A DNA stretch of 39,164 nt, from the NCBI GenBank assembly GCA_937967535.1, contig CALCMV010000157.1, forward strand, positions 1-39,164, read 5' to 3'. Made by a program: the position numbers and the translations under genes. Shown here piece by piece: positions 20,167 to 38,998 of this stretch. Source of the DNA: an uncultured Saprospiraceae bacterium (lineage in GTDB: Bacteria; Bacteroidota; Bacteroidia; Chitinophagales; Saprospiraceae). Positions within the stretch are counted from its first letter, which is position 1. Each line of letters opens with the position of its first letter. A model generated the notes under the pieces. That model searched no databases, was not told the DNA's origin, and saw nothing but the letters and a program-made list of their open reading frames with translations.

Positions 20167-20235
20167 AAAATGTAAAATAACTAATTTAAAATCCCGTCAT
20201 TCGTCGGGACAGGTGTAAAAATGTTTGTAGTACGC
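20167..20235 (+). repeat. Intergenic module, family B, copy 2
   Basis: AAAATGTAAAATAACTAATTTAAAAT (20167-20192) matches 10188-10213 at 24/26. It is followed by a small hairpin insert (CCCGTCATTCGTCGGG), then TGTAAAAATGTTTGTAGTACG. That last block is related to 10214-10234 and, inverted, to 10311-10339. Confidence 0.7.
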
Positions 20236-20659
20236 GAGTGTTTTGTTATTAATTTATAATTAATTAAAAAATAATAAATTAGATAAAAAATGTGTTTGTT
20301 TTATGTGATACAAATTTGAAAATAAAAATGTCAGAACTTTTCCAAACACATATATTTGAGTGCAATCAAAAATCAAAAATCGCTCAATCCCGCAATGTAA
20401 GTTTTATAGCAATTTTAACGTCAAAAATAATGTCCTGTCAAAAAACTACCTTATCTTGGTACGATATTTTAAGGTGAAAAAATAATATTTATAAAAATAT
20501 TTGTATTATTACGCAAATCATAACAGGCTTGACAATCTTTGATTAATTGATTGCAGATATTAGATTGGACTTGAAATAAACATATTTAATTAATTTATTT
20601 TAAATATGTTTTTGTAAAATACTTAATTTAATAAAACGCAAAATTTACTAATTTTAATA

Positions 20660-22945: not shown

Positions 22946-22985
22946 AACCGTCATTTCTTTTTTGGAAATGGCGGTTTTTTATTTT
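22946..22985 (+). terminator. Rho-independent terminator of the OmpA-family gene
   Basis: Stem AACCGTCATTTC (22946-22957) / GGAAATGGCGGTT (22964-22976) with one G-U pair, followed by a T-rich tail. Confidence 0.75.
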
Positions 22986-22989: not shown

Positions 22990-23050
22990 AAAATGAAAAT
23001 AAAAATGGAAAATTAAAATGAAAATAAAAATAAAAATAAAAATAAAAACT
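22990..23050 (+). repeat. Degenerate hexanucleotide microsatellite (AAAATR)n, four perfect AAAATA units at 23021-23044
   Basis: Read directly: AAAATGAAAATAAAAATGGAAAATTAAAATGAAAATAAAAATAAAAATAAAAATAAAAACT. Confidence 0.8.
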
Positions 23051-23055: not shown

Positions 23056-23126
23056 TTAAGTGGTTGGACTGAACTAAGCGACACTTTTAATTATGATAAT
23101 TCATTGAAAATGAATTGTTTATTTAA
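23056..23126 (+). repeat. Dispersed ~65-70-bp element, family C, copy 1 (inverted partner at 37420-37487)
   Basis: The 32-nt perfect core TTAAGTGGTTGGACTGAACTAAGCGACACTTT (23056-23087) is the exact reverse complement of 37456-37487. Similarity continues through AATTCATTGAAAATGAATTG and TTTATTT. Confidence 0.88.
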
Positions 23127-23235
23127 ACTTAAACTTACTCTTAAACTTCCACTTAAATACTATTTGAGTGTATAAAATATTAGTGGCAATCAGATATGAA
23201 AAGCCAAAACACATACTACTGCACATCTTTAATTT

Positions 23236-23314
23236 TGCCACAAAAACACGAAAACACAAAGAATTTTCATGCTTATCAGCAATTGATACTTTGTGTCTTC
23301 GTGTCTTTGTGGCA
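23236..23314. repeat. Long hairpin (26-bp stem, 27-nt loop)
   Basis: TGCCACAAAAACACGAAAACACAAAG (23236-23261) pairs with CTTTGTGTCTTCGTGTCTTTGTGGCA (23289-23314) at 24/26. Both mismatches are A-C on the + strand, i.e. G-U on a minus-strand RNA. It lies ~105 nt beyond the 3' end of the TonB-receptor gene. Confidence 0.8.
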
Positions 23315-23418
23315 GTTTTCAATTTTGAATTATGTTTAAATGAATCAATAAACTCAAGCGTAAAAGCATTTACTCATTTTATCATTTACTCATCTACTCA
23401 TTATGATAGTAGAATGAC

Positions 23419-26400
23419 TTATTCAAAAATATAACGCACACCGAGCAACATTCTCCAACGCGAGCTAAAATCTGCTACATTAAAAACACTGCCTGTTGGT
23501 GCATTGAAAGTATAAGTAGCGATATTTTCGCCACTACTATTGTCAATACCTTCAAAATCAATCAAACTGAATGCGTCAAAATTCGTAAAGTATTTCGCGC
23601 CCCAATTTTGGTTCAATAAATTACCAACATTAAGAATATCGAGTGATACTTGAATCTTATTCGTTGATTCACTGATTTTCGTGCCTACATTGAGGGCGAG
23701 TTTGAGGTCAAAATTATGCTCAAAAGGAGTGCGCGAACCATTGCGCTCGGCATAGTCGCCTCTGCGCGAATTGAGGTAATCGTCAGCACTGATAAAAGCA
23801 TCCAGACTTGCCCACTGTTCGGCAGCACTAAGGATAATTTCGCCGGTATCACCTGTTACATCAAGCAATTGAATCTGGCTGGCATCGGCGGGGACAAAAA
23901 TCAAATCGCCGAAGCTCGAATCACCATTAGATACCCGCCCGTTGTAGATATAAGAAAACGGACGACCAGAACGACCTTCATAAAATAAAGCAGCCGTAAT
24001 GCCGAAGAAATCGTTGAAATCTTTTTGATAAGAAATCAAACTATTCACACGCGAACCCGCAGAAAAATCAGAACGAGAAACATTAAGATAGTTGCGCCCT
24101 GCCGTATTTTCAACGAATCTCCATTGCGAGGAATTTTGCGAAGAAGTACCGTCATTGACGGCAAAAGCATCGCCCAAAGAATAAGCAATTCCTGCCAAAA
24201 AGCCGTTGTTGAAAGGTCGGTCAAGGCGTATCGTGAAGTTATATCCATACCCTTTATTGGTATTATCACCCAAAATAATCCGCGAATACGTATCGTCAAT
24301 TTCATCAAAGCGGTCAAAAATCGGGCGGTCATCTGCGCCTGACAATCGCTCGGTAGTAGGTCGTAGATTGAGGTTGTAATAGACCACATTATTGAGGGTT
24401 TTGGTATAAACGGCATCAAAACCACCTACAAAACCACCGGGCAGATTTTGGTCATAACCCAAATTGGCGCGGAATACCTGCGGGTATCTGAAATCTTCGC
24501 TAAAGAAATCAATTTGACCGGAAGGAATCGCATCGGCAGCCCCGAAATCAGTTGCCTGCGGCTGTGCATCAATGTCAGGATTGAATACAAAAGTAGAATC
24601 AAATTGATTGAAAAACGTACCACCAATCGTGAGACCGTTGTTGGCAAACGAACCGCCGGGCCATACAAAAGGTACACGACTCGTAAAGATACCCAAACCA
24701 CCGCGTACCACACTTGAATTGTCGCCATTGACATCATAATTAAAGCCCAATCGCGGACTCAACATCAGCGCACCTTGCGGCAATTTTCCGGCTTCTGCAC
24801 CATCCAGTGCATCCAAAATTTCTGTCTCACCCGCATAAGCCTCGCGGATAGCAGGTAGGGTATTGTTGTTGAAATTTTCATCTGCCACAGGCTCATCCAA
24901 AAAGAAGGGAATATCAAGGCGCAAGCCATAAGTCAATTTGAGTCTGTCGCTTACCGCAAAACGGTCTTGGGCATAAAAACCAAGCTGCAAAGCATTGAAA
25001 TTCGCGCCGGCTTCTGAACCATCGCCGCGTAAATCATCCACCAATGAATAGCTGCTTACATATTCAAGCGGAGGCGCACCTCCCGTAAAATCATTAATCG
25101 AACCAAACTCGTATTCACCAAAATTCTGGCGAATAAAGAGGTTGTAAATATTATAAAATTCATTGTGCGTACCTATCGTAATGGTGTGTTTTCCTTTGTA
25201 CAAACTAAAATTATCGGTCAGTGTAAATATGTTTTGTGCCAATTGATTTGCCGTAGAAAAAACCTCGCTTCCGAATCGAAGCTGACCACTGCCATCAAAG
25301 ATAGTGATACGCGGAAAATCCATACCCATCGGGTCGCGGTCGTCAAATACTCTTGTGAAACCGACTATCAAATCATTGGAAGACGAGGAGCCAAAAACGC
25401 TGTTTAGCTCCAAAGCAGAAGAATTGGTCGTACTTGGAAAAAGAATACCACCATTTAAGAAGTTAATCGTGCGATTGTTCGAACTGCTTGGTCCTATCGA
25501 AGTACCTCTTGTATAAGAGTGGCGCAGTTTCAATTTGGTAGAATTGTTTAAATTAAAATCCAAACGTGCCAATATTTTTTCACCTTGCAATTCGCGGGTA
25601 TTATTCAAAAAACCACCCGGGTCGTAGCCGTAAGTATTGCGTAAGAAATCTGCAAGCGCATTGATTTCTGCTTCGCTAGATGCTCCCTCATAATTTGAGA
25701 AGTCAAAAGGTTGTGGCGTTTGGTCGCGTTGCAATTCGGCATTGACGAAGAAAAACACCTTGTTCTTCTTGATTGGTCCGCCAAGTCGGAATCCGTAAGT
25801 ATTTGCAGAAAAATCGTCCACTGAGGTACGCTGTTCTCTTGCTTCGTCGTCGCTTAGTTCTTGATTTGGGTCAAATACAAAACGGTGTGTTTGACCCACC
25901 AAATTTTGATTGCGTGTAAAGTAATATGCCGAACCTTCAAAATTATTGGAGCCACTGCGCGTCACCGCATTGATACCACCACCGGCAAAGCCTCCCAAGC
26001 GCACATCATAAGGCGCAAGCACCACCTGAAACTCCTCTATCGCATCAATACTGATGGGTGCAATACCCGTTTGTCCGCCATTCGTTCCTTGGTCCGACAA
26101 GCCGAATACGTCATTATTCACCGCCCCATCAATAAAAATTGAGTTGTAGCGATTATTGGTACCTGCAATTGAGATACCACCATCTGCCGTTGTAGAGGCT
26201 TCGGGTGTGAGTTTGAGAAAATCGTTGAAGTCGCGATTCACCGTTGGTATTGAGCTAATCGTTTCCTCGCCGATAGTCGTCTCTGCACCAGTTCGTTCAG
26301 AGTTGAGCAAACCTGCTTTTTGGGCTGTCACTGTCACCCCTTCGAGTGCGATTGCGCCATCCGAAAGTTTATTATTCAAACTCAAATCCTGACCGAGTGA

Positions 26401-26703
26401 GAGATAAATCCCTTCCCTGACCACATCTTCAAATCCTACATAAGAAGTGGTAATCGTGTAAGGTCCGCCCACGCGCATCGCAGGCAATGTGTAGCCGCCG
26501 TCTTCACGAGTAATCGCGCCATACTGCGTACCTGATGGCATATGTATCGCAATCACCGTAGCACCGATTAGCGACTCACCATTGGTGTCCATTATCGTTC
26601 CGCTTACGGAAGCCGTTGTGACCCCTTGTGCAAAAATAGCCGTTGATAACACACTCATTATCAATAGCAAAAAGACTGATTTAAATAGTTGTATTTTTTT
26701 CAT
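23419..26703 (-). CDS. TonB-dependent outer-membrane receptor with N-terminal carboxypeptidase-regulatory-like domain (Oar-like)
   Basis: 1094 aa with a signal peptide. The CarbopepD_reg-like N terminus reads VSGTIMDTNGESLIGATVIAIHMPSGTQYGAITREDGGYTL. A plug region and a long G/N/F/Y-rich beta-barrel follow. There is no SusD-like partner. Confidence 0.92.
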   Translation of the reverse strand: MKKIQLFKSVFLLLIMSVLSTAIFAQGVTTASVSGTIMDTNGESLIGATVIAIHMPSGTQYGAITREDGGYTLPAMRVGGPYTITTSYVGFEDVVREGIYLSLGQDLSLNNKLSDGAIALEGVTVTAQKAGLLNSERTGAETTIGEETISSIPTVNRDFNDFLKLTPEASTTADGGISIAGTNNRYNSIFIDGAVNNDVFGLSDQGTNGGQTGIAPISIDAIEEFQVVLAPYDVRLGGFAGGGINAVTRSGSNNFEGSAYYFTRNQNLVGQTHRFVFDPNQELSDDEAREQRTSVDDFSANTYGFRLGGPIKKNKVFFFVNAELQRDQTPQPFDFSNYEGASSEAEINALADFLRNTYGYDPGGFLNNTRELQGEKILARLDFNLNNSTKLKLRHSYTRGTSIGPSSSNNRTINFLNGGILFPSTTNSSALELNSVFGSSSSNDLIVGFTRVFDDRDPMGMDFPRITIFDGSGQLRFGSEVFSTANQLAQNIFTLTDNFSLYKGKHTITIGTHNEFYNIYNLFIRQNFGEYEFGSINDFTGGAPPLEYVSSYSLVDDLRGDGSEAGANFNALQLGFYAQDRFAVSDRLKLTYGLRLDIPFFLDEPVADENFNNNTLPAIREAYAGETEILDALDGAEAGKLPQGALMLSPRLGFNYDVNGDNSSVVRGGLGIFTSRVPFVWPGGSFANNGLTIGGTFFNQFDSTFVFNPDIDAQPQATDFGAADAIPSGQIDFFSEDFRYPQVFRANLGYDQNLPGGFVGGFDAVYTKTLNNVVYYNLNLRPTTERLSGADDRPIFDRFDEIDDTYSRIILGDNTNKGYGYNFTIRLDRPFNNGFLAGIAYSLGDAFAVNDGTSSQNSSQWRFVENTAGRNYLNVSRSDFSAGSRVNSLISYQKDFNDFFGITAALFYEGRSGRPFSYIYNGRVSNGDSSFGDLIFVPADASQIQLLDVTGDTGEIILSAAEQWASLDAFISADDYLNSRRGDYAERNGSRTPFEHNFDLKLALNVGTKISESTNKIQVSLDILNVGNLLNQNWGAKYFTNFDAFSLIDFEGIDNSSGENIATYTFNAPTGSVFNVADFSSRWRMLLGVRYIFE

Positions 26704-26737
26704 ACGTAAAAATGATTTTAGTAAAGAAATTCAAACG

Positions 26738-26745
26738 CAAAATTA
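26738..26745 (-). promoter_or_regulatory. Candidate Bacteroidota -7 promoter box (TAnnTTTG) for the TonB-receptor gene
   Basis: The + strand CAAAATTA reads TAATTTTG on the minus strand, 35 nt upstream of the ATG at 26701-26703. Confidence 0.3.
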
Positions 26746-27033
26746 ATGTGAAATACGAAAAGCAAATATACTATTCGGATTAAAGAATTGTTATTTATCA
26801 GCCTTTTAGTTATTAACAAAAAATTAACATGTCTGTTGCTTATGATGGACTCGAATAAGCCCTTAATACCTGAATCGTGAAGACTTGCACAATTTTGGCA
26901 AAAAATGAGTGAATTTTTCTAAGGAAATAATGCTAAAATGTACTAATGTTTCTGAATTATCGTATTAGCACTGAGGGCAATTACATTAGATAATGGCTTT
27001 ACGCTCGGCTCTTTTGACAGCGATTGTATAAAT

Positions 27034-28071
27034 GTGATAGGAGGCGGCATTACAGGTGTATTCACTGCGAAGATAGCAGATGCCCCCATTCCCGAATTTG
27101 TGTACTACCTCTACGACCACCTCGGCAATACTCGTGTCACATACAGCGTTGAGGTAAAAACACCTACACAGATAGAGCCTACTGTGCTATCTGCCACCGA
27201 CTACTATCCCTATGGAAAAGCCCTACGCACCTACGGCAAAGAACGCTACCAAAGCACCTACCACGAGCGCGATGTGGAGAGTGGTTTTGATTATCGTGGG
27301 GCAAGATTCTACGATAGTGATGTAGCGAGGTTTAATTCGCTTGACCCACACGCCTCGGATTATGCTTCGTGGAGTGATTATAGTTATGTGTTGGGGAATC
27401 CATTAATGCTTATTGATTCTGATGGAAAAGATCCTATAATTCCCAAAATTTACTTGGTAGATTTTGCAGGATTAGATATGGATGTAATAAGTGGCCATGT
27501 CCGTGATATTTTTGCTAAAAATGGATTTGAGGTTACAACAGAAATTATAACACCAGAGCAAGCTCTTGCAATTACACCTTTAGACCAACAAGGGGTCTAC
27601 GGTGTGAGTGTCATCAATACACCTCGTCAAAAAGATGGACCTTATCAATTTTTAGGACATTCAGAAATTAATCATGACTTAATTCTTTTAGCATGGGAAG
27701 ATAATGGCAACATTGGAACTACTACTTATGTGAATTCCAATGAATTTTCCAATGCTGCGTATCGTGAATATACAATGGGATACTTGGCTTCTCATGAAAT
27801 TTTGCATCAAATGTTGGAACAAGCATATCTCTATTATGGATACACGGAAGAAGAAATAAAAACTATGTTTGCCTCAAGTGATTCCGATGGAGAACATTAT
27901 GATAGTGAACCAAATCTGAATAAAGATGGAAGAAATACGAAAATTCCAGAAGGAGCTTCCGATAAGTTAAGACCACAAGAACAAATTTTAAATTCTAATG
28001 ACCATAAATGTCTTCTTCAAAGTTTCTTCTCAGATGTGGGTAGTGATAACTATTTTTTAGGTAGAGACTAA
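27034..28071 (+). CDS. Orphan Rhs/YD-repeat C-terminal fragment carrying a variable toxin tip with an HExxH motif
   Basis: The last YD repeats and core end read YYLYDHLGNTRV, TDYYPYGK, YRGARFYDSDVARFNSLDP...GNPLMLIDSDGKD (to ~27432). An unrelated ~210-aa tip follows, with SHEILHQ (H254-H258, nt 27793-27807). The frame is open only from 26956 and has no ATG before the YD repeats. The track start is a GTG. Confidence 0.8.
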   Translation: MIGGGITGVFTAKIADAPIPEFVYYLYDHLGNTRVTYSVEVKTPTQIEPTVLSATDYYPYGKALRTYGKERYQSTYHERDVESGFDYRGARFYDSDVARFNSLDPHASDYASWSDYSYVLGNPLMLIDSDGKDPIIPKIYLVDFAGLDMDVISGHVRDIFAKNGFEVTTEIITPEQALAITPLDQQGVYGVSVINTPRQKDGPYQFLGHSEINHDLILLAWEDNGNIGTTTYVNSNEFSNAAYREYTMGYLASHEILHQMLEQAYLYYGYTEEEIKTMFASSDSDGEHYDSEPNLNKDGRNTKIPEGASDKLRPQEQILNSNDHKCLLQSFFSDVGSDNYFLGRD

Positions 28072-28120
28072 ACCCAAATAAATCACTAAAACAACATAAC
28101 GCATATTAAATTTTGATAAA

Positions 28121-28636
28121 ATGAAAACAGTAATAATATTGAAAGTGTTAATTTTTTCAATGCTTTTATTTTCATGTACAAATGATAAAACTGAAGCAAA
28201 GTTGAAATCAGAAAATAACTTAAATAGTGTGAGTATTGATTTTATTGGATTTAAAAATAAAGTAGGAACAGACAATGATGAATTTAGTAGTAATCCTTTT
28301 GATATAGAAATTACTAACAATCGTGATGAATCAATCTACTTTATTACTCTTGATTACGATTCAACATATATTGTTCCTGAAAAAATACGTAAATACCGAG
28401 AGAAAAACCTGTTGAGTACATCTACTCCTGAAAATTGGAAATTTGGAGTGGCAGAAGTCCACTCCAAATCACAAAGGAACTTTTCTATGGGTAGTTTCTT
28501 CATAAAAGTCCCCCCAAAAGCAGATGTATTTGAATTTTTAATTTGTTATTTTTTCTCTCCTACCGTTGAAGGCGAGAGGAGATGTCAGACATTAAAATAT
28601 AAGTTAGAGGGAAACCTAATAAAAGAGGTTGATTAG
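28121..28636 (+). CDS. Small lipoprotein, candidate immunity protein for the adjacent Rhs toxin tip
   Basis: 171 aa. MKTVIILKVLIFSMLLFSC is a signal peptide with a lipobox. It starts 50 nt after the toxin stop on the same strand and is very AT-rich. The call rests on position only. Confidence 0.5.
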   Translation: MKTVIILKVLIFSMLLFSCTNDKTEAKLKSENNLNSVSIDFIGFKNKVGTDNDEFSSNPFDIEITNNRDESIYFITLDYDSTYIVPEKIRKYREKNLLSTSTPENWKFGVAEVHSKSQRNFSMGSFFIKVPPKADVFEFLICYFFSPTVEGERRCQTLKYKLEGNLIKEVD

Positions 28637-28745
28637 TGTCTTTTTACATTTAATTGTCCTCCCGGAAAACGCCCCACTCACGCTCCCCTCAATCATCACC
28701 TTCAGCCAGATACCCTAGAAGAGTAAATGGCTGCTATCAAGTAAG

Positions 28746-28794
28746 ATGCCCGATACTTCATGTGCCTACAAGCATAACAAGTGTCGGGCATTTT
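28746..28794 (+). terminator. Terminator candidate after the toxin/immunity pair
   Basis: 12-bp stem ATGCCCGATACT (28746-28757) / AGTGTCGGGCAT (28780-28791) with one G-U pair and a 22-nt loop, followed by TTTT. Confidence 0.45.
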
Positions 28795-29057
28795 CGTAAT
28801 ACATTTAATCCCAAAAAACACATTCTTCATGCTAAAAAAAACGAACAAACAACAAATTCACCCACCCCAAATCAACGAATCAATCAAATTTGTTGCGAAA
28901 TCCCCGAACAAACCTTAACTTGAAGCCTGAAATACACCATTCATCCGCACACCTAAAAGATTTTTTTCTATTTGTATTTAAGTGAATATTGATAATCAGT
29001 TTTTTATGAAGTAAAAAACAACTAATCACCATTCACGCATCACCAATCACCATACAA

Positions 29058-32000
29058 ATGAAGCAGGTTTATACTTTACTATTACTCCTTTTATTTGCCC
29101 TGACAATTGTTTCAAATGCTCATGCACAATGCGATGCAGTCATTCTCACGCCTGACCAAACGGAAGTTTGTGACAACTTCTTCATGGTCTCCGCACAAGA
29201 ACCGGCAGGCAACTTTACCGGACAATGGACAGGTCCGGGCAATACCTCTTTTGCTGATGAAAACAGCCCAAGTACTTTCATCACCAATCTCAATCCCGGA
29301 CCCAATACCGTCGTTTGGTCTATATTCGATGCAAGTGGAACGATATGCAATAGTATGTCCATTACACTCATCAATAATGAAGTCACGACCACGCCTATCA
29401 TCACCACCGACAATAATCAGGAAGTGTGTGATGAAAACAATTTTCAGATTGCCGCCAATACCAACCTCAATCCCGGCGAAGTCGGTTCATGGTCGTCCAA
29501 TATTCCCGGCGTTACGTTTTTACCGAACGTTAATAACCCAAATGCCACTGCAAACAATCTCGCTCCCGGCAATAATGTCATTTTCTGGACGATAAGAAAA
29601 GAAGGTTGCTCTGCCAATCCTGCCTCTATCACCGTCATCAATAATGAGGTGATTACAGAGCCTGAAATAGAGCCTTTTTCCGTACTTATCAGTTGCGAAA
29701 CCGATGGCTTCGACGATATATTTGCCAATCTCACCAATCAACTCATTCCCGGCGAAACGGGTACTTGGACAGGACCTCCTGGGGTTACTTTCTCGCCCAA
29801 TTCCGAGTCACCGACCATTGACGGTTTATTGCCCGGTGCCAATGAACTCACATGGACCATCTCGCGTGGCGGATGCCCTGTCAAAACGACTTCCGTTACC
29901 CTCGTCAACGATATGGTAATGACTGATGCTCAAATACTTACGAGCGCACAAGAAGTTTGTGATGAAAATGATTTTAGCATAGAAGGAAATACACCCGCCA
30001 ATGGCGAAACAGGTACATGGACAGGACCCGCAGGTGTCACCTTCTCCGACCCGAATAGCCCGACCAGCACCGTCAACGGCTTACAACCCGGTGATAATGA
30101 AATTTGCTGGACGATTTCACGCGGCAATTGTCCGCCTACACAAGCCTGCGTCATCATCACCAATAATGAAGTGACGACCACATCTAGCATCTCTACTGCC
30201 GATGGACAAGAAGTTTGTGATGAAAATGGCTTCATGGTTTCTGCCAATGCACCCGCACCCGGCGAAACGGGAACTTGGAGTGGACCCGCCGGAGTGACTT
30301 TCATGCCCAATGCCAATTCGCCTGATGCGACTGTAAATAATTTGCCATCCGGCACCAGTACTTTATGTTGGACGATAACACGCGGCGGATGTGATGATAC
30401 TGCAACGGAATCATGTATTGATGTAACAAATAATGAAGTCAACACTACCGCAGCCATCTCCACACAAAACGGACAAGAAGTTTGTGATGAAAACGGTTTT
30501 ATGGTTTCTGCAAATACACCTGCGAGTGGTGAAACAGGAACTTGGAGTGGACCCGCCGGAGTGACTTTCATGCCCAATGCTAATTCGCCTGATGCTACGG
30601 TAAATAATTTGCCACCCGGCACCAGCACACTGTGTTGGACGATAACACGCGGTGGCTGCGACGATACAGCAACGGAAGCCTGTATAGAAGTCACCAATAA
30701 TGAAGTAACCAGCGTTTCAGCCATTGGCACTGCCAACGGACAGGAAGTATGTAATGAAGATAATTTTGCTGCCGATGCCAATGTACCCGCAGACGGCGAA
30801 ACCGGAACTTGGTCAGGACCTCCGGGTGTTACTTTCAGCCCCAATGCCAATGCACCAAGCGTTGTGGTCAATGGTTTGCCGACAGGCACGAGTACTTTAT
30901 GTTGGACTATCACACGCGGCGGATGCGATGATACGACGAGCGAATCTTGTATTGATGTAATGAATAATGAAGTTCTCACGCAATCCGCAATCGCCACCAC
31001 TTCCGGGCAGGAAACTTGCGACAGCGATACTTTTATGGTAGAAGGCAATGCCCCGCAAGGCAACGAAACCGGAACGTGGACAGGACCTCCGGGTGTTACT
31101 TTTGACCCGAATGAAAATTCTCCAAACGCTACCGTCATTGGTTTGCCGCTTGGTACAAGTACACTCACATGGACGATTTCAAATGGTGGCTGCCCTGCTA
31201 CTTCTGCCGAAATTTCTGTACTCAATAACGAACCCACCCAACCCGAAATATCTACTTCGGGCGGACAAGCAATTTGCGATATTGAGAGTTTTACATTAGA
31301 AGCGAATACCCCGGCAACAGGCGAAACAGGCGTTTGGACAGGTCCGGCGGGCGTGATTTATTTACCAAATATAAATTCACCAACGGTAACAGTCAGCAAT
31401 TTGCCACCGGGAGATAATGATTTTACTTGGACAATTTCGCAAGGCGGATGCAGCCTTTCGGATGTGGTGACGGTCACAACATTTAGTACGCCCGTAGGCA
31501 CGACCACCATTTCTGATGTTACGGTGGTAGATGGTAATGATGGTGAAATCGCTATTTGCATCAACGGCGGTACTTCTCCCTACGATGTCACTTGGATGCC
31601 GAATGAGGGAGACCTTGCCCCCGTTGCCGGTCCTTGCGATGCCAATTTTGAAATAACGGGCTTGACCGAAAATGTATATACCATATTTATAACAGATGCC
31701 AACGGCTGTAATGACACTATTCCGAATGTAGCTGTCAGCGGACCTATTTGCGACAACTTCAATATCGGACTCGTAACAACAGTTGGCGAAACCTGCAACG
31801 ATACACAAGACGGTAGTATCACGATTGAAGTACTTGGCGCACAAGGCGATATTACTTATTCGATTGGCAACGGTATTCCCGATGTCACAACTTCCGACAA
31901 TCCCTTTACATTCACCGATTTACCCGCAGGTTCTTACAATCTTTTTGTACAAGATGAACGCCTTTGTCCCGATTCGTTTATCAGCAATCCCGTTGTCGTA

Positions 32001-35000
32001 ACCGAACCTAATCCATTGACTGTCAGTACATCTGTAACGGATTTGGGTACGATTGGCGGCTCGGATGGTGCGGTTTGTATTACGGTAGAAGGTGGTACTG
32101 CGCCTTATACGATTACCTCCGATTGTGGTACGGTGATGTCGGGGGCAGGTTCGTGTGGAGGCGATTTTCACATACCCAACCTAATGGATGTTACTTGTGA
32201 AATTACGATTGTGGATGCTACGGGTGAATGTACGGTAATGACCTCTGCAACGGTCAGCCCGCCCACTTGCGACCTTAGCATTAATGGCGACCCGATTGTT
32301 TCTCAAGTCAATTGTTTTAATGGAAATGATGGTAGTATCACAGTAAATGCTTCAAGTATGGGCGGCGGTATTCAATATTCGATTGATGGCGGAGATACTT
32401 TTATGTCAGGTGCGAGTCCTTTTACTTTTGATAATTTACCTGCCGGAACGTATAATTTGGTCTTGGGAGATGCGCTGAATTGTATGACTTCTTTTGCGAA
32501 TAATCCAATCGTACTCAATAATCCCCCCGAACTTATTGTCACCACAGATACGATACGTACCACTACGGTAGGTGGCAATGATGGTATCATTGATATTTGT
32601 ATTATGGGCGGTACGCCCAATTTTACGGTTGAATATACGCCCAATACCGGATTCTTGACTTCGGTACAAGGCAACTGCGATGCCAATTTCCAAATTCTCG
32701 GACTCATCGAAGGGCAATACGACATCACCGTAACCGATGCCAATGGTTGTGTATTCAATATTAGCGAGACAGTGGAAGGACCGGATTGTTCTTCATTTAC
32801 GATAGGACAGGTATTGGCAGAAAATGAATCTTGCAATGAAGCGGACGATGGTAGCATTACGATTGAAGTTTTGAGCGCAATTGGTGAAATTACTTATTCG
32901 GTAGGCAATGGTATTGAAGATGTTGTGACGAATACCAATCCGTTTACCTTTGAAAATTTGCCTGAAGGAGAATATATTGTATTTGTGGTAGATGAAGTGG
33001 GTTGTTCCAATTCATTTATCAGTAATCCGGTCATCATTACCGCACCCGAAGCATTATCCTTGAGTGCAGATTTGACGAATGTTTCTGTTTTAGGTGGTTC
33101 GGATGGTGCAATCGAAATTAGCGTGACAGGTGGTACAGGACCTTTTACAGCAATCATCAACGGTGCTTCGCAAATGACAAGTGCAGACGGTAATTTTGTT
33201 TTTTCAAATTTACCCGCAGGAGAATATGAAATCGTGGTAACGGATGCGAATGGTTGCGAAATTAGCACTACACAAACCCTCAACGACCCTTCATGTGTAT
33301 TGGAGGTAACGGATGTAATGACCACTCCCGCCTCATGTGCAGGCTTCGCGGATGGTACGATTACAATTACTTCAACAAGTGATAATCCGCCCATCGAATA
33401 TACTATTGATGGTGTGAATTTTCAAGCATCCAATGTCTTTACCGGTTTGACTGCCGGCGAATATACTATCGGTATCAGCGATGCGGTCAATTGTACGGCG
33501 ACCTTTAGCGGCAATCCCGTTGTGGTCGGCGAACCTGCGGCTTTGAATATATTGCCTACGATTTTGAATGTCTCAGCATTAGGTGCTAACAACGGACGTG
33601 TGATTTTGTGTATCAATGGCGGTTCACCCGATTATACAGTCAGCATTGACCCGCCTGCGGGAACGATTACGGAGACCATGGGTAGCTGCGATGCCGACTT
33701 TGAAATTACCGATTTGCCACCGGGCGAATATGTCGTTACGATAAGCGATGCGAATGGTTGTGAAGTCATAATTGACGCGCCTATCGAAGAGCCGGATTGT
33801 TCCGGTTTTATGGTCACGGATGTTATTCCGATGGATAATAATTGTAATGTCAGCAGCCAATCCAATCCCGACCCCGATGGTACGATTGAAATTTTTGTGA
33901 CAGGAGGCGAACCACCTTATGATTACTCCATTTTCGGCGGTGCCAATTCGATTAATTTTGCAGATACTTCCTTCCTTTTTACAGGTTTGAATGTCGGAAC
34001 ATACACCATTTTGGTGACGGATGCGAGTAACTGTGCGGTGGGTTTTGTAGAAACCGTCGAAATCGGCGAACCTGAATTATTGGTCGCGCCTCCGACCATC
34101 ATCGAACCGAGTGTAGTCGGTGCCAGCGATGGTGAAATTTGTCTGAGTCCTTCCGGTGGTATTCCGCCTTATACGGTGATGGCGAGTTGTGGTACGGTCA
34201 TCGAGGGTCCGGGGCAGCAATGCGGTGGCGATTTCCATATCGCAGGGCTTTCGGCAGGGCAATGCGACATCCTCGTGATAGATGCAAATCTCTGTGAGGC
34301 GAGTGGTACGATTATCTTGGAAGACCCGCCTTGCGACCAATTTGGTATCTCGGCAGTCAGTTCAGAAAATGCTTGTTTTGGTGTGGCAGATGGCGAAATT
34401 ACGATTAATATTATGGGAGGTATACCGCCTTACCAATATTCTACGGATGGTGGTGCCACTACGCAGACCAGCAATGATATGTCCTTTACATTCAGTGGAT
34501 TGGCTCCCGGAACTTACGATATTTTTGTATCGGATATGGTGCTGTGTACCGAAGATTTTGCCGACCAAATTGTGATAGAGGAAATTGCTGAATTTGAGGT
34601 AGATGCAGGTATGGATGCCACCGTCGAAATCGGGGAATCCATTGAACTCAACGCCACTTCGAGCGAAGCGGGCGACTACGAATGGATGCCCGCAGATGAT
34701 TTGGATGACCCCTTCTCTGCCAATCCTACCGCGACTCCTATGGATGTTGGAGATATTACTTACGAAGTCACCCTCACTACACCCGATGGCTGTACAGCTA
34801 GCGACGAGGTGAGAATTACGGTAGAAGACAATAGTACCGTAGTAGTGCCAACGGGTTTTACACCAAATGGAGATGGTAATAATGATACGTTTTTCCCTGA
34901 AATCAATGGGAATGTGGATGTACTTTCATTTACGGTATGGAATCGCTGGGGCGAAAAAGTCTACGACAATCCTGCACCTCCGGGTTGGGATGGCACTTAT

Positions 35001-35105
35001 AAAAGTGTCAGACAACCCCTTAGCACCTTCGTATATATGCTCGAATTTAGCATCAACAACAGACCACCGGAATTTTTGAAGGGAGATGTGGTGCTGATAA
35101 GATGA
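29058..35105 (+). CDS. Giant (2015 aa) SprB-like repetitive cell-surface protein with a type B T9SS (gliding-associated) C-terminal domain
   Basis: It has a signal peptide. About nine ~89-95-aa Cys-containing modules follow (NNEV...GQEVCDENGF...GETGTWSGPAGVTF...CWTITRGGC). Next comes an array of SprB-type repeats (C-N/G-DGSITV...GG-PY-Y). The C-terminal PTGFTPNGDGNNDTFFP...VWNRWGEKVY is typical of the type B sorting domain. Confidence 0.92.
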   Translation: MKQVYTLLLLLLFALTIVSNAHAQCDAVILTPDQTEVCDNFFMVSAQEPAGNFTGQWTGPGNTSFADENSPSTFITNLNPGPNTVVWSIFDASGTICNSMSITLINNEVTTTPIITTDNNQEVCDENNFQIAANTNLNPGEVGSWSSNIPGVTFLPNVNNPNATANNLAPGNNVIFWTIRKEGCSANPASITVINNEVITEPEIEPFSVLISCETDGFDDIFANLTNQLIPGETGTWTGPPGVTFSPNSESPTIDGLLPGANELTWTISRGGCPVKTTSVTLVNDMVMTDAQILTSAQEVCDENDFSIEGNTPANGETGTWTGPAGVTFSDPNSPTSTVNGLQPGDNEICWTISRGNCPPTQACVIITNNEVTTTSSISTADGQEVCDENGFMVSANAPAPGETGTWSGPAGVTFMPNANSPDATVNNLPSGTSTLCWTITRGGCDDTATESCIDVTNNEVNTTAAISTQNGQEVCDENGFMVSANTPASGETGTWSGPAGVTFMPNANSPDATVNNLPPGTSTLCWTITRGGCDDTATEACIEVTNNEVTSVSAIGTANGQEVCNEDNFAADANVPADGETGTWSGPPGVTFSPNANAPSVVVNGLPTGTSTLCWTITRGGCDDTTSESCIDVMNNEVLTQSAIATTSGQETCDSDTFMVEGNAPQGNETGTWTGPPGVTFDPNENSPNATVIGLPLGTSTLTWTISNGGCPATSAEISVLNNEPTQPEISTSGGQAICDIESFTLEANTPATGETGVWTGPAGVIYLPNINSPTVTVSNLPPGDNDFTWTISQGGCSLSDVVTVTTFSTPVGTTTISDVTVVDGNDGEIAICINGGTSPYDVTWMPNEGDLAPVAGPCDANFEITGLTENVYTIFITDANGCNDTIPNVAVSGPICDNFNIGLVTTVGETCNDTQDGSITIEVLGAQGDITYSIGNGIPDVTTSDNPFTFTDLPAGSYNLFVQDERLCPDSFISNPVVVTEPNPLTVSTSVTDLGTIGGSDGAVCITVEGGTAPYTITSDCGTVMSGAGSCGGDFHIPNLMDVTCEITIVDATGECTVMTSATVSPPTCDLSINGDPIVSQVNCFNGNDGSITVNASSMGGGIQYSIDGGDTFMSGASPFTFDNLPAGTYNLVLGDALNCMTSFANNPIVLNNPPELIVTTDTIRTTTVGGNDGIIDICIMGGTPNFTVEYTPNTGFLTSVQGNCDANFQILGLIEGQYDITVTDANGCVFNISETVEGPDCSSFTIGQVLAENESCNEADDGSITIEVLSAIGEITYSVGNGIEDVVTNTNPFTFENLPEGEYIVFVVDEVGCSNSFISNPVIITAPEALSLSADLTNVSVLGGSDGAIEISVTGGTGPFTAIINGASQMTSADGNFVFSNLPAGEYEIVVTDANGCEISTTQTLNDPSCVLEVTDVMTTPASCAGFADGTITITSTSDNPPIEYTIDGVNFQASNVFTGLTAGEYTIGISDAVNCTATFSGNPVVVGEPAALNILPTILNVSALGANNGRVILCINGGSPDYTVSIDPPAGTITETMGSCDADFEITDLPPGEYVVTISDANGCEVIIDAPIEEPDCSGFMVTDVIPMDNNCNVSSQSNPDPDGTIEIFVTGGEPPYDYSIFGGANSINFADTSFLFTGLNVGTYTILVTDASNCAVGFVETVEIGEPELLVAPPTIIEPSVVGASDGEICLSPSGGIPPYTVMASCGTVIEGPGQQCGGDFHIAGLSAGQCDILVIDANLCEASGTIILEDPPCDQFGISAVSSENACFGVADGEITINIMGGIPPYQYSTDGGATTQTSNDMSFTFSGLAPGTYDIFVSDMVLCTEDFADQIVIEEIAEFEVDAGMDATVEIGESIELNATSSEAGDYEWMPADDLDDPFSANPTATPMDVGDITYEVTLTTPDGCTASDEVRITVEDNSTVVVPTGFTPNGDGNNDTFFPEINGNVDVLSFTVWNRWGEKVYDNPAPPGWDGTYKSVRQPLSTFVYMLEFSINNRPPEFLKGDVVLIR
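30162..30695 (+). repeat. Two tandem 267-bp (89-codon) coding repeats of high identity inside the adhesin gene
   Basis: The units are 30162-30428 and 30429-30695. They share a 44-nt identical run (30270-30313 = 30537-30580) and many shorter ones. Confidence 0.85.
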
Positions 35106-35138
35106 TGTACCAAATCTGTACTAAATTTATAGAAATAG

Positions 35139-35175
35139 AAATGCCGAACATGATTGTGTTCGGCATTTTTATTTC
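35139..35175 (+). terminator. Rho-independent terminator of the adhesin gene
   Basis: 12-bp perfect stem AAATGCCGAACA (35139-35150) / TGTTCGGCATTT (35157-35168) with a 6-nt loop and a T-rich tail. Confidence 0.85.
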
Positions 35176-35182
35176 TTAGAAT

Positions 35183-35281
35183 AATGAGTGAATGAATAAT
35201 TAATGCGCCAATGTGATAATTCAGAGTATCGGGATGCAATTTAATTGATTGTAAAAAAACATGAACCATGAACTATGAACC
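35183..35281 (-). repeat. Composite intergenic module, family A, copy 2 (inverted relative to 10800-10936)
   Basis: The reverse complement reads GGTTCATAGTTCATGGTTCATG-TTTTTTTACAAT-..-CATCCCGATA-..-ATTATCA-..-ATTCATTCACTCATT. This is the same block order as copy 1. Confidence 0.75.
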
Positions 35282-35352
35282 TCTTTAAATAACTAATTTC
35301 AAATCAAAAAAACCGTTCAAATGTTGATATTATTATTTAAACTATTCTAATC

Positions 35353-35382
35353 AAAAAAAAACGTGCGAGCAAGCTCGCACGT
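35353..35382 (-). terminator. Rho-independent terminator of the cadherin-like T9SS protein gene
   Basis: GC-rich stem ACGTGCGAGC / GCTCGCACGT (35361-35382), followed on the minus strand by a T8-9 run (A-run at 35353-35361 on +). Confidence 0.85.
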
Positions 35383-35453
35383 CCGCAGTTGATTAATGTG
35401 AGGCATATTAATTTAAAATATAATTATTTATACGCCTTTTTGTTTAATAAAGT

Positions 35454-36599
35454 TTAAATTTTAACAAATTTCTTTGCAATCCATTCTCCTTCAATCAGGG
35501 TATTGAAAAAATAAACGCCTTGTGAGAAATTAGATACATCAAAGCGATAAGTCGGATTATTGGAGATAGGTCTTGTTTGTGTTTCGAGGATGCGTCCGTT
35601 GACATCCGTAATGATGATTTGTGCATCAGATTGAACCGGAATATTGAGATATTGCACCGTAATAAAATCATTTGCAACCGTAGGCAACAACTGAATATCG
35701 TAGCGACTTTCAGGCTCATTGACATTCGTAACTACTTCACTGACAGTGACATATACGTTTGCCGTAGCACACTGACCATTCGTATCACAGATGCGATACT
35801 CAAATGGCGCAACCTCGCCTACAAAACCACTCGCAGGTTCGAGCAATAATTCGCCGGGATTGTTGCTTGCCGTTACCGTCATTTGCTGTGCAGGCGGCGT
35901 ACTTAGCAGACTAAAAGTACTCATATCCAAATCATCATTAAGGTCAATATCATTATCCAATACATTGACGCTCATAGATTCATTGGGCAATGCGCTGATG
36001 AAATCATCGAAAGCAGTAGGCGCAACCGAGCAAAAATCGTAGAAACAAATATCGAGGTCTGCATAATTACCCTCTTGTACAACGTACAAACCGCCATCAT
36101 ACTTCTCTACCACAACGGTATTCGGATAATGCACCTCAGCATAAGTGTGCCAAGATAGATTCAGGCACTTGGTCGGGTCTGCAATATCAAATTGCAGTCT
36201 GCCTACGCTTGTCCAATCCGAAGCACTGACAAGCATCCCCGCATCACTCTGCAATTCAACATTATACGACAATACTGTGTCGATACTTCCCACTAAAGAA
36301 TGTGAGCTATACAAAACAACCGTACCATCAGGCAATTGGGTAACGCCAGCCAAGTCCAACTCTTCGAGAATAACCGGATTAGCAACGGCATTTCTGGAAA
36401 AAGACATTCGGTAATTTTGTTCCGCTACATTGAAAGTCGAACCATTGTCACTCGCTTTGAGTGTAATGTCTGCACTGACTTTCATGTTTCCGCAATCCAC
36501 CTCATTGAGCAGAAAGTGGAGGTCAAATTGACCTATCTGAGCATTAGCTTGTGAGAGTAACATGCACAAGCAAGCAGTTAAGTACAAATACTTACTCAT
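35454..36599 (-). CDS. T9SS-secreted protein with a cadherin/VCBS-like Ig domain and a type A C-terminal sorting domain
   Basis: 381 aa with signal peptide MSKYLYLTACLCMLLSQANAQ. The Ig-like segment reads APTAFDDFISALPNESMSVNVLDNDIDLNDD...ANVYVTV. The C-terminal LLPTVANDFITVQYLN...GVYFFNTLIEGEWIAKKFVKI is CTD-like. Confidence 0.87.
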   Translation of the reverse strand: MSKYLYLTACLCMLLSQANAQIGQFDLHFLLNEVDCGNMKVSADITLKASDNGSTFNVAEQNYRMSFSRNAVANPVILEELDLAGVTQLPDGTVVLYSSHSLVGSIDTVLSYNVELQSDAGMLVSASDWTSVGRLQFDIADPTKCLNLSWHTYAEVHYPNTVVVEKYDGGLYVVQEGNYADLDICFYDFCSVAPTAFDDFISALPNESMSVNVLDNDIDLNDDLDMSTFSLLSTPPAQQMTVTASNNPGELLLEPASGFVGEVAPFEYRICDTNGQCATANVYVTVSEVVTNVNEPESRYDIQLLPTVANDFITVQYLNIPVQSDAQIIITDVNGRILETQTRPISNNPTYRFDVSNFSQGVYFFNTLIEGEWIAKKFVKI

Positions 36600-37068
36600 T
36601 TGAAAAAATATTTCTTAAATTATTATAAAATATGATTCGTACAGTTTTTGAGGATTTAGCAGATGGTGAGAATAGTGGATTGTTGGGGAATTTTTTTAAG
36701 ACTCTGACATCTGGCAGCAAAGCGGTCTGGCTTCTAAAAGTTTTAATATAAAACTAGCGATAATACTGATTGTTAGAAATTTTATTACGCAAAAATTAGT
36801 GCTTTTTATACAAACTCCAATTTCTTTGCTTTGTGGTCGGTATTCATACCATAAATCATAAAATAGTGACGCGGTAGACCTAAGAGTTGTCGTGTTTTTT
36901 AGTATTATTTTTATGCAAATGCTGTATAATTTTTGGCGTGTTTAATTTTCATACAAAAGAAGCCGTCCAAATGTTGTTTTTATTTTCTTAGTTCAATGTC
37001 TTCGCCAAATTTCAAACTAAAGAAACTATTAGCTTATTTTTCCGTTAATTATTGGTGAAAAATGGTAC

Positions 37069-37419
37069 TATACTGTGAACGGTATAAATTTCGGAAAATA
37101 TCAGTTTTTCCGAATGAACCCGTAATGACTGCTTTAGCTGTCAAGTGCATTATTATTTTTATTTATAAAAAATTTAAAAACAATAATTTATAGATTTATT
37201 TTTATTTCACTTGACAGCTAAACAGGCTGACCGGGAACTCGTACAGGCGATTTCAATCGCCATGTTTAGTATAATTTTTATTTATAATTCACTGTAAATA
37301 AATGTTATACGAATTTTGTTTATTTTTTACATGGCGAATGAATTCGCCTGTACGGTATTCGCGGTCAGCCTGTAAAGCAGTCATTACAGTTTTCCGAAAT
37401 TTATGCCGTTCACAGTATA
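37069..37419. repeat. 351-bp compound inverted repeat (outer stem plus two internal hairpins with AT-rich 60-65-nt loops)
   Basis: Arms were verified by hand. A: 37069-37098 / 37390-37419 (29/30). B: 37122-37136 / 37373-37387 (15/15). C: 37133-37147 / 37208-37222 (15/15). D: 37222-37233 / 37362-37373 (12/12). E: 37240-37264 / 37330-37354 (23/25). Confidence 0.9.
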
Positions 37420-37487
37420 AAATAAATAATCCATTTTCAATGAATTATGAAAATGAAAGTGTCGCTTAGTTCAGTCCAACCACTTAA
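37420..37487 (-). repeat. Dispersed ~65-70-bp element, family C, copy 2
   Basis: It contains the exact reverse complement (37456-37487) of 23056-23087 plus flanking similarity. It directly abuts the compound inverted repeat and ends 80 nt upstream of the adaptor gene. Confidence 0.88.
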
Positions 37488-37567
37488 TATTATTAAAGCA
37501 ATAGCAACTTTCGGAAGAAATCAACAAAGAACAAAGAACGTGATTAGTTACAAATTATTTTTATCAT

Positions 37568-38971: not shown

Positions 38972-38998
38972 TTGATTTTTGCTGATTGTAGGATTGCG
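38972..38998 (+). repeat. GATT/TTTTG word array overlapping and following the adaptor stop codon
   Basis: ATGATTGAATGATTGATTTTTGCTGATTGTAGGATTGCG spans the stop TGA (38969-38971). It belongs to the same word family as 20106-20139 and 22907-22920. Confidence 0.65.

What the first reader, a model, noticed from the sequence alone, without database searches (positions are those of the whole stretch)
23056..37487. Inverted copies of a ~65-70-bp element (32-nt perfect core) bracket a 14.3-kb block of surface and toxin genes
TTAAGTGGTTGGACTGAACTAAGCGACACTTT (23056-23087) is the exact reverse complement of 37456-37487. The similarity continues inward through a 7-nt substituted patch, the block AATTCATTGAAAATGAATT and TTTATTT. 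The total is about 65-70 bp with one indel. Everything between the copies is cell-surface or competition related: the Oar-like TonB receptor, the orphan Rhs toxin tip with its immunity candidate, the 2015-aa SprB-like adhesin and the cadherin-like T9SS protein. The left copy abuts an (AAAATA)n microsatellite. The right copy abuts the 351-bp compound inverted repeat and sits 80 nt upstream of the adaptor gene. Inverted repeats of this kind can be recombination sites for inversion of the whole block. They can also be the ends of a composite or defunct mobile element, or solo copies of a MITE-like family. No recombinase is visible in the window.
Basis: partly seen in the sequence, partly recalled or inferred. 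Interest (0 to 1): 0.65.

Follow-up and report, generated by a model that had tools for sequence, protein, structure and literature searches.

The report
Two copies of a common MITE
The two inverted sequences are real, but they are two ordinary copies (one complete, one truncated) of a roughly 100-bp high-copy mobile repeat found in many intergenic regions of Saprospiraceae genomes, so their bracketing of the surface-gene block looks coincidental.

Summary
23056-23087 is the exact reverse complement of 37456-37487, and similarity runs about 68 nt (62/68, one indel).

The pair is not a private pair. The core 22-mer occurs on 12 different contigs of one Saprospiraceae MAG, once in a second MAG and once in a JGI metagenome. 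In the source metagenome its k-mer depth is about 5,700-9,700, against about 35 for unique sequence.

Aligned copies define a roughly 86-113-nt unit:
- a TA at both ends;
- short terminal inverted repeats (TAAGTG...CACTTA);
- a conserved core hairpin of about 30 nt;
- a second hairpin with compensatory changes;
- a variable run of AAACTT-like hexamers.

It has no coding capacity, and every copy is intergenic. The left window copy is full length (23057-23155). The right copy is a 5' fragment (37420-37486) that stops where a second high-copy repeat begins (37069-37419). Each window copy resembles copies in another genome more closely than it resembles its partner.

In relatives, the TonB receptor and SprB adhesin are a conserved adjacent pair, and the two outer flanks are never contiguous. 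The window encodes no recombinase or transposase.

Verdict: a RUP/Correia-like bacterial MITE family. Inversion switch and composite transposon are unsupported, although inversion could not be tested directly.

The parts
23057..23155 (+). Full-length copy (99 nt) of the repeat family, with TA at both ends: TA-AGTGG...CCACT-TA.
   Evidence: nhmmer profile hit covers model positions 1-99, E=7e-25. See also the alignment A1. Contig homology in the metagenome starts at 23057 (loose ends).
23058..23086 (+). Conserved core, which folds as hairpin 1: AAGTG-G-TTG [12-nt loop] CGA-CACTT.
   Evidence: RNAalifold consensus. 98.4% of cells are paired, with one compensatory G-C to A-U change in the diverged copy L002b. 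The core is identical in all copies found with the exact 22-mer; the search itself imposed that identity.
23098..23116 (+). Hairpin 2: AATTCATT-GAA-AATGAATT, an 8-bp stem with a GAA loop.
   Evidence: Three pairs carry changes on both sides, in 1, 4 and 6 sequences. 99.2% of cells are paired. 0 of 500 shuffles reach the observed covariation score, and sliding the register drops pairing to 37-53%.
23125..23148 (+). Run of AAACTT-like hexamers whose number varies between copies.
   Evidence: Alignment A1 shows 6-nt indels among copies. A TTAAAC insertion variant appears in contigs.
37420..37486 (-). Truncated copy holding the 5' 67-68 nt of the unit (core, spacer, hairpin 2, ATTTATTT). The hexamer run and the 3' terminus are missing.
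   Evidence: nhmmer hit covers model positions 1-69, E=8e-17. The sequence beyond the 351-bp repeat does not resume the unit.
37069..37419 (.). A second, unrelated high-copy repeat (351 bp, 30-nt terminal inverted repeats TATACTGTGAACGG...). It abuts the truncation point of the right copy.
   Evidence: the repeat finder I4, 97%. Depth is 2,600-2,900 against about 35 for unique sequence. Its termini recur in L002 at two places and in L006.
22990..23050 (.). A-rich microsatellite-like tract, (AAAATA/AAAATG)n, just 5' of the left copy.
   Evidence: the repeat finder D9. Depth is raised in 23007-23043.
23160..23413 (.). Further dispersed repeats filling the rest of the OmpA-TonB intergenic region, including a palindrome with arms at 23237-23261 and 23289-23313.
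   Evidence: Depth is 700-4,600 against 34-35 for unique sequence. Short matches occur in L001 and L002. Sequence read.

Best explanation
The two inverted sequences are independent members of a dispersed, high-copy, non-coding repeat family of Saprospiraceae. [quoted passage not shown]

What is shown directly. The unit is about 86-113 nt. It starts TA-AGTGG and ends (C/G)CACT-TA. It carries an imperfect terminal inverted repeat, a conserved subterminal core of about 30 nt that can form a hairpin, a second hairpin, and a variable number of AAACTT-like hexamers. The left window copy is complete. The right copy is a 5' fragment that abuts a second repeat family.

Mechanism (inferred, not shown). 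The unit is mobilised in trans by a transposase encoded elsewhere in the genome. It inserts at TA dinucleotides in intergenic DNA and duplicates the TA. That pattern points to an IS630/Tc1-mariner-type enzyme, as proposed for RUP of Streptococcus pneumoniae. I put about 0.4 on that specific enzyme family.

The conserved core is most simply the transposase-binding end. The compensatory changes in hairpin 2, and the G.T wobble intermediates seen on one strand, suggest an added constraint on a single-stranded form, either a transcript or ssDNA.

The inverted orientation of the two copies and their bracketing of 14.4 kb are coincidental. With roughly 10^2 copies per genome, one or two copies are expected in a 39-kb window, and any two copies are inverted half the time. 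At most, such copies are occasional substrates for RecA-dependent rearrangement.
For: Copy number and spread:
- The 22-mer core is found on 13 contigs: 12 from one Saprospiraceae MAG and 1 from another. It also occurs on a JGI metagenome contig.
- A profile search adds diverged copies at L014:1180-1284, L004:396-463, L002:7562-7660 and L028:2165-2237.
- Depth over the element is 5,700-9,700 in X1 against 35 for unique sequence, and 138-310 against about 5-15 in X4, with hundreds of different flanks. Depths at two MAG copies are similar.

Anatomy:
- TAAGTG/CACTTA termini are complementary in 12-14 of 14 copies.
- TA lies at both ends of all 13 full-length copies.
- Single copies fold as a long imperfect stem-loop (z = -4.9 for the window copy).
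- Stop codons occur in five of six frames.

Context:
- All 19 copies are intergenic and often touch stop codons.
- Their neighbours are unrelated genes, including an L-aspartate oxidase/succinate dehydrogenase-type flavoprotein, SDR, GTPase, MFS, histidine kinase, thioredoxin, TssR and T9SS cargo.

The two window copies are not a matched pair:
- winL-L011 is 67/68 and winR-L010 is 64/68, while winL-winR is 62/68.

Nesting typical of MITE-rich intergenic DNA:
- Another repeat, with termini CATACTAyTATACATG, sits inside or next to copies in L004, L013 and L010.
- The 351-bp repeat abuts the right window copy.

The block is not a unit:
- In an 87% relative, the TonB receptor and SprB adhesin are adjacent.
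- In an 83% relative, the TonB 3' end is linked to aconitase, which lies at window 1-1125 in the same relative orientation.
- Relatives' OmpA-like gene and HlyD adaptor have other neighbours.

Other:
- The window has no recombinase or transposase.
- RUP is described as 107 bp, with a 9-bp TIR, TA termini, 108 intergenic copies and stops in all frames (PMC2229807).
Against: - No empty site was found, so mobility and TA duplication are inferred and not demonstrated.
- No autonomous element or transposase with matching ends was found in any sequence available here.
- The two termini are only weakly alike beyond 6-11 nt, and the long conserved core exists at one end only. That is unusual for a classical TIR element.
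- Depth sums all contigs at least 90% similar in a metagenome, so copies per genome are only approximate. At least two element-bearing genomes share sample X1.
- Both window copies do lie at synteny breakpoints relative to the nearest relatives. This fits repeats promoting rearrangement. It fits equally well with repeats accumulating in variable intergenic DNA.
Confidence: 0.85

Rival explanations
1. Inversion switch. The two copies are recombination sites. The 14.4-kb segment flips, either by a site-specific recombinase encoded elsewhere or by RecA acting on the 32-nt identity, and this changes expression of the surface genes or the adaptor gene.
For: - There is a perfect 32-nt inverted identity.
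- The right copy lies in a divergent promoter region 80 nt from the HlyD adaptor start.
- Both copies coincide with synteny breaks relative to relatives.
Against: - The same 32-nt core is present in every other family member found, on at least 14 other contigs. Nothing is specific to this pair, and each copy is closer to a copy in another genome.
- No recombinase lies in 39 kb.
- 32 nt is near the lower limit for RecA-dependent exchange (my own knowledge, not tested).
- No strand-switching joint was listed between the two sites. The k=31 unitigs could not have shown one in any case.
- No relative shows the block in the opposite orientation. Relatives instead show TonB-SprB as backbone.
Confidence: 0.04
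2. Composite or defunct mobile element. The two copies are the outer ends of a 14.4-kb transposon or island that carried the surface and toxin genes in as one unit.
For: - The conserved ends of both copies face outwards, and each is flanked by TA.
- The Rhs-tip/171-aa ORF pair inside is a genuine indel relative to a relative.
Against: - There is no transposase inside or nearby.
- The right copy is truncated and lacks its own 3' terminus.
- In the 86-88% relative, the OmpA-like gene is followed by MsrA/ABC-F and the HlyD adaptor is preceded by serine dehydratase, on different contigs. The flanks are therefore not a filled target site.
- The TonB receptor has orthologues at 74-92% identity in related assemblies and about 50-59% in more distant Bacteroidota, and it is adjacent to SprB in a relative.
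- The TonB 3' end is collinear with aconitase at the far left of the window. The rearranged piece is therefore the 22 kb to the left, not the block.
- GC content of the block matches its surroundings.
Confidence: 0.03
3. Structured functional element, not primarily a transposon. The family would be a multicopy small RNA or cis-acting RNA/DNA module (transcript-end stabiliser, terminator or protein-binding site). Selection would maintain it, and it would spread by recombination and not by transposition.
For: - Hairpin 2 shows compensatory changes at three pairs.
- Most departures from Watson-Crick pairing in hairpin 2 are G.T wobbles on the same strand: five wobble cells against one C-A mismatch.
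- Hairpin 1 keeps an invariant T.G pair.
- The forward strand folds slightly better in 10 of 13 copies.
- The core is identical in at least three genomes.
- Hairpin 2 is followed by a T-rich ATTTATTT.
Against: - There is no Rfam match, either at gathering thresholds or at E<=1.
- Orientation relative to neighbouring genes is mixed, with copies in 3'-3', 5'-5' and tandem intergenic regions.
- Terminal inverted repeats, TA at both ends, variable hexamer number, an internally deleted copy lacking hairpin 2 (L004:396-463), truncated copies and nesting with other repeats are all transposon-like.
- The identity of the core is partly an artefact of searching with an exact 22-mer. Profile-found copies have diverged cores.
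- No RNA data were available.
Confidence: 0.08

Closest known systems
RUP (repeat unit of pneumococcus), Streptococcus pneumoniae
   Same: Both are about 100 bp, with a short TIR (9 bp in RUP; 6-11 bp here) and 5'-TA-3' at both termini. Both occur at about 10^2 copies that are strictly intergenic, have no ORF and carry stops in most frames. Both are presumed to be mobilised in trans (RUP properties from PMC2229807; this element).
   Different: There is no sequence relationship and the phylum differs. RUP's TIRs match IS630-Spn1, whereas no cognate IS was found here. This family also has a roughly 30-nt conserved core at one end only and a variable hexamer run.
Correia/NEMIS elements of Neisseria
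   Same: Both are units of about 100-155 bp with TA termini and target duplication. Both are hundreds of copies close to genes, fold as stem-loops in transcripts and come in length variants caused by internal segments (PMC2229807).
   Different: Correia TIRs are long (24-26 bp) and near-perfect, and the elements carry IHF sites and promoters. Here the TIR is short and imperfect, and no such motifs were tested.
ERIC/IRU, REP/BIME and IS200/IS605-derived PATEs
   Same: All are short, structured intergenic repeats whose hairpins show compensatory change. PATEs share the strand asymmetry.
   Different: REPs are 20-40-nt palindromes linked to RAYT transposases. PATEs lack TIRs, have similar hairpins at both ends and sit 3' of a fixed tetranucleotide. 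This unit has TA at both ends, two unlike hairpins and no fixed tetranucleotide in the 5' flank.
Invertible DNA segments (Hin/Gin/Fim-type or Bacteroides invertons)
   Same: In both cases inverted repeats flank genes or promoters of surface structures.
   Different: Invertons have a dedicated recombinase, usually adjacent, and private repeats. Here the repeat is a high-copy family, no recombinase is present and the segment is 14.4 kb of partly conserved backbone genes.

Membership tests
Bacterial MITE | Small size (under about 300 bp) and no coding capacity | tested here: met
   Units are 86-113 nt. The 99-nt window copy has stop codons in five of six frames.
Bacterial MITE | Terminal inverted repeats | tested here: met
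   TAAGTG/CACTTA termini are complementary in 12-14 of 14 copies. A seventh pair and four flanking positions are complementary in about half. Whole units fold end-to-end.
Bacterial MITE | Multiple dispersed copies with different flanks | tested here: met
   12 contigs in one MAG, other genomes as well. Depth is about 160-275 times unique depth, with hundreds of loose ends.
Bacterial MITE | Target-site duplication, shown by comparing filled and empty sites | tested here: inconclusive
   TA flanks all 13 full-length copies, but it could equally be part of the element. No empty site was found at orthologous loci or in unitigs.
Bacterial MITE | A cognate autonomous element or transposase with matching ends | not testable with these tools
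   No transposase occurs in the window or next to any copy. The viral scan found nothing.
IS630/Tc1-mariner-derived MITE (RUP-like) | Insertion at TA with TA duplication, and TIRs resembling an IS630-family member of the same host | tested here: inconclusive
   TA lies at both ends in every full copy. TIR similarity to an IS630 member could not be tested. A resemblance of the core to mariner ITRs is from memory only.
Site-specific inversion switch | Private inverted repeats plus a recombinase gene, with both orientations present in the population | tested here: not met
   The repeats are not private. No recombinase lies in 39 kb. The presence of both orientations was not testable with k=31 unitigs.
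Composite transposon or genomic island | Bounded by two functional IS or element copies, with flanks contiguous where the element is absent | tested here: not met
   The right copy is truncated and there is no transposase. In relatives the flanks are not contiguous, and the inner TonB-SprB pair is conserved.
Described RNA family (Rfam 15) | Match to a covariance model | tested here: not met
   No match in the window at gathering thresholds. No match at the element in five loci at E<=1.

The most novel reading that the evidence does not exclude
The family is more than selfish DNA. It would be a strand-specific structured module, RNA or ssDNA, whose roughly 30-nt core and two hairpins are under selection across Saprospiraceae species. 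One possibility is an unrecognised transposition mode with asymmetric ends. Another is a domesticated transcript-end or regulatory element. Under this reading its dispersed copies, these two included, would act as the recombination substrates behind the very poor synteny seen around this locus.
Probability: 0.1. Interest if true: 0.45.

Novelty: new member of a known kind. Interest (0 to 1): 0.15.

Why it matters
The result removes a tempting but unsupported reading, namely a phase-variable or mobile 14-kb cassette of surface and toxin genes.

It replaces that reading with a defined repeat family that annotators of Saprospiraceae genomes and MAGs can mask and use. The family breaks assemblies, marks variable intergenic DNA, sits against stop codons and coexists with at least two other MITE-like families.

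The family itself is an ordinary kind of element. Its only mildly unusual traits are the one-sided conserved core and the strand-biased compensatory changes in the hairpins.

Tried and rejected
- Rfam scans and a tRNA/tmRNA scan found nothing at the element.
- The JGI metagenome scan gave only one locus. The viral contig scan gave none.
- A literature search for the core sequence and for Saprospiraceae MITEs found nothing relevant.
- Exact-sequence look-ups of the two flanking window proteins failed, so I went through homologues instead.
- No RNA runs were available.
- I looked for inverted junctions and for empty sites in Logan contigs at the window copy and at two MAG copies. None were seen, but k=31 unitigs end inside the repeat, so absence is uninformative.
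- Orthologous sites gave no empty site. L023, L015 and L031 all lose homology next to the repeat cluster instead of showing a clean empty site: L023 and L015 just after the OmpA terminator (window about 22980-22985), and L031 at the TonB stop (window 23420).
- IS200/IS605-type PATE and REP/RAYT were considered and rejected. The unit has TA at both ends plus TIRs, two unlike hairpins and no fixed 5' tetranucleotide.
- A resemblance of the core to mariner ITRs came from memory. It was not tested and carries no weight.
- The core as a tRNA fragment or an attachment site was considered. Nothing supports it.
Full report
**Observation.** The 32-mer TTAAGTGGTTGGACTGAACTAAGCGACACTTT lies at 23056-23087 on the + strand and at 37456-37487 on the - strand. 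None of 100 shuffles gave a match at up to 3 mismatches. The repeat finder extends the pair to 23124/37420 (I2 and I3). In an alignment the two copies agree at 62 of 68 positions with one 1-nt indel.
- an A-rich microsatellite at 22990-23050;
- a 351-bp compound inverted repeat at 37069-37419;
- the adaptor ORF 80 nt away.

The gene content is also confirmed:
- an Oar-like TonB receptor (23419-26703, -);
- an ORF with an Rhs-associated core domain (27034-28071; TIGR03696, 51 bits), followed by a 171-aa ORF with no family;
- a 2015-aa SprB-repeat/CHU_C protein;
- a 381-aa Big_9/Cadherin_5/Por_Secre_tail protein.

The outer flanks are envelope proteins too: an OmpA/TPR/PD40 protein on the left and a HlyD-type adaptor on the right. 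The surface theme therefore does not stop at the repeats.

**The pair belongs to a family.** An exact 22-mer from the core was found on 13 contigs of the species-representative genome collection. Twelve are different contigs of one uncultured Saprospiraceae MAG and one is from another Saprospiraceae MAG. A 20-mer was also found on one JGI metagenome contig. A profile built from full-length copies finds only the two known copies in the window. It adds diverged copies at L014:1180-1284, L004:396-463, L002:7562-7660 and L028:2165-2237.

Logan contigs of the marine metagenome that holds the window give a unique depth of about 35. Over the element the depth is 5,700-9,700, with hundreds of different flanking sequences. 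Two MAG copies in the same runs show the same picture. At least two element-bearing genomes share that sample, so the per-genome number is only an order of magnitude, about 10^2. At that density one or two copies in 39 kb is what chance predicts.

**Anatomy.** Aligned copies define a unit of 86-113 nt:
- It begins TA-AGTGG and ends (C/G)CACT-TA.
- The termini TAAGTG/CACTTA are complementary in 12-14 of 14 copies. The next inner pair and four flanking positions (AAG-TA...TA-CTT) are complementary in about half. That suggests either a subfamily with a longer TIR or a palindromic target preference.
- Positions 2-30 form a conserved hairpin, AAGTG-G-TTG/CGA-CACTT, with one compensatory change in a diverged copy.
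- A second hairpin, AATTCNNT-GAA-ANNGAATT, has three pairs with changes on both sides (1, 4 and 6 sequences). Its cells are 99% paired. Pairing collapses to 37-53% when the register is slid, and 0 of 500 shuffles reach the covariation score.
- Most non-Watson-Crick states in hairpin 2 are G.T on the same strand (five cells, against one C-A mismatch). Hairpin 1 keeps an invariant T.G pair.
- Next come an A/T-rich stretch and a variable number of AAACTT-like hexamers.

Whole units fold end-to-end into an imperfect stem-loop. The window copy has z = -4.9 as RNA and -3.0 as DNA. The forward strand is slightly more stable in 10 of 13 copies. The 99-nt window copy has stops in five of six frames. 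There is no Rfam match.

**The two window copies.** The left copy (23057-23155) is complete. The right copy (37420-37486) holds only the first 67-68 nt. It ends exactly where the 351-bp repeat begins, and the unit does not resume on the other side. That 351-bp repeat is itself a dispersed family: depth is 2,600-2,900, and its termini recur in L002 and L006.

A third repeat, with termini CATACTAyTATACATG, sits inside or beside copies in L004, L013 and L010. The rest of the OmpA-TonB spacer (23160-23413) is also repetitive. These are MITE-rich junk intergenic regions.

Over the shared 68 nt, the left copy is closest to L011 (67/68) and the right copy to L010 (64/68). The two window copies agree at 62/68. 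They are not a matched pair.

**Context elsewhere.** All 19 copies examined are intergenic. They lie in convergent, divergent and tandem spacers, and often touch a stop codon; the terminus TAAGTAAG itself supplies stops.

Neighbouring genes are unrelated to one another. They include an L-aspartate oxidase/succinate dehydrogenase-type flavoprotein, SDR, aldo-keto reductase, a GTPase, MFS, FtsX, GNAT, histidine kinase, thioredoxin, TssR and several T9SS cargo proteins. No transposase or recombinase is next to any copy, and none is in the window.

**Synteny.** Orthologues of the OmpA-like gene at 92, 88, 68 and 60% identity keep the upstream neighbours where the contig extends that far: E2 throughout, and CinA in the 88% and 60% relatives. 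DNA homology of the closer relatives to the window ends at about 22980-22985, just after the terminator. Each relative has a different downstream gene.

Homology around the HlyD adaptor is confined to 37552-38981, and its neighbours differ as well. In the 86-88% relative the two outer flanks lie on different contigs with other neighbours, so the block is not a filled insertion site.

Inside the block, an 87% relative has the SprB-like adhesin and the TonB receptor adjacent and divergent. In that relative, 69 nt stand where the window has 2,041 nt carrying the Rhs-core ORF and the 171-aa ORF. In an 83% relative the TonB 3' end is followed, 2.2 kb on, by aconitase. That gene lies at window 1-1125 in the same relative orientation.

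TonB-SprB is therefore backbone, collinear with the far-left end of the window. What is rearranged is the 22 kb to the left of the left copy. None of the relatives' loci carries the element at the corresponding place.

**Interpretation.** The evidence fits a RUP/Correia-type bacterial MITE (properties of those families from PMC2229807).

- Shown: the family, its anatomy, its copy number, its intergenic scatter, the truncation of the right copy, and the lack of any special relation between the two copies or between the pair and the block.
- Inferred: mobilisation in trans, TA as a target duplication, an IS630/Tc1-mariner-type enzyme, and the core as its binding site.

No empty site and no cognate transposase could be found with the data at hand. 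The one-sided conserved core and the strand-biased compensatory changes remain mildly unexplained. They leave a small probability for an RNA- or ssDNA-level function.

Inversion of the 14.4-kb segment by homologous exchange between the 32-nt identities cannot be excluded with unitig data, but nothing supports it.

**Verdict.** This is an ordinary dispersed repeat, a new family of a known kind. The bracketing is coincidental and interest is low.

Noticed in passing
window 37069-37419: The 351-bp compound inverted repeat is itself a high-copy dispersed family, with 30-nt termini TATACTGTGAACGG... and depth 2,600-2,900 against 35. Its termini recur in L002 (244-280 and 7078-7110) and in L006 (7076-7110). 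It abuts the truncation point of the right copy.
   Followed up: partly
L004:1211-1436; L013:1058 onward; L010:6658 onward: A third MITE-like family (about 225 bp, long terminal inverted repeats CATACTAyTATACATG...CATGTATAGTAGTATG, internal CTGAATTTATTTCAG hairpin) is inserted into or directly beside three copies of the element. A metagenome contig shows a further such junction.
   Followed up: partly
window 26845-28886: The Rhs_assc_core ORF (27034-28071) and the 171-aa ORF after it form a 2-kb indel. An 87% relative (L031:7846-7915) has 69 nt there, between an otherwise conserved divergent TonB-receptor/SprB-adhesin pair.
   Followed up: partly
window 29058-35105 vs L031:273-7673: The SprB-like adhesin is 2015 aa here and 2466 aa in the relative. 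The window gene carries internal 267-nt and about 1038-nt tandem repeats (D1-D7), so repeat number varies between relatives.
   Followed up: no
window 1-1125 and 23419-26719 vs L032: The aconitase and TonB-receptor genes are 2.2 kb apart in an 83% relative but 22.3 kb apart here, in the same relative orientation. The intervening window DNA includes a CinA-E2-OmpA segment that sits elsewhere in the relative. Synteny in these genomes is very short-range.
   Followed up: partly
L002:6699-6770 and L005:1-72: The same 72 nt of flank are joined to the 3' end of one copy of the element in L002 and to the 5' end of a different copy in L005. The opposite flanks differ. This is an assembly-graph branch that neither simple inversion nor homologous exchange explains.
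   Followed up: partly
window 10174-10361; also 20113-20389: A palindromic repeat of about 180 bp at 10174-10361 is shared with L003:4122-4292, L026:7333-7523 and L019:7988-8168. A related inverted repeat lies at 20113-20389. This is another dispersed intergenic family.
   Followed up: no
window 23237-23313: A palindrome (GCCACAAAAACACGAAAACACAAAG ... CTTTGTGTCTTCGTGTCTTTGTGGC) lies in the same spacer as the left copy. It is also high-copy, with depth 1,700-2,900.
   Followed up: no
L004:396-463: A 68-nt copy lacks hairpin 2 altogether. It is wedged between the stop codons of two convergent genes, with 2 nt to spare on each side, so the hairpin is dispensable for persistence.
   Followed up: no
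window 979-1018 and 1108-1854: A perfect 40-nt palindrome lies after the aconitase gene; its central 30 nt (window 984-1013) also occur at L015:1006-1035. Next to it is a PIN-domain toxin (1108-1554, -) with a small upstream ORF (1564-1854, -), a likely toxin-antitoxin pair.
   Followed up: no
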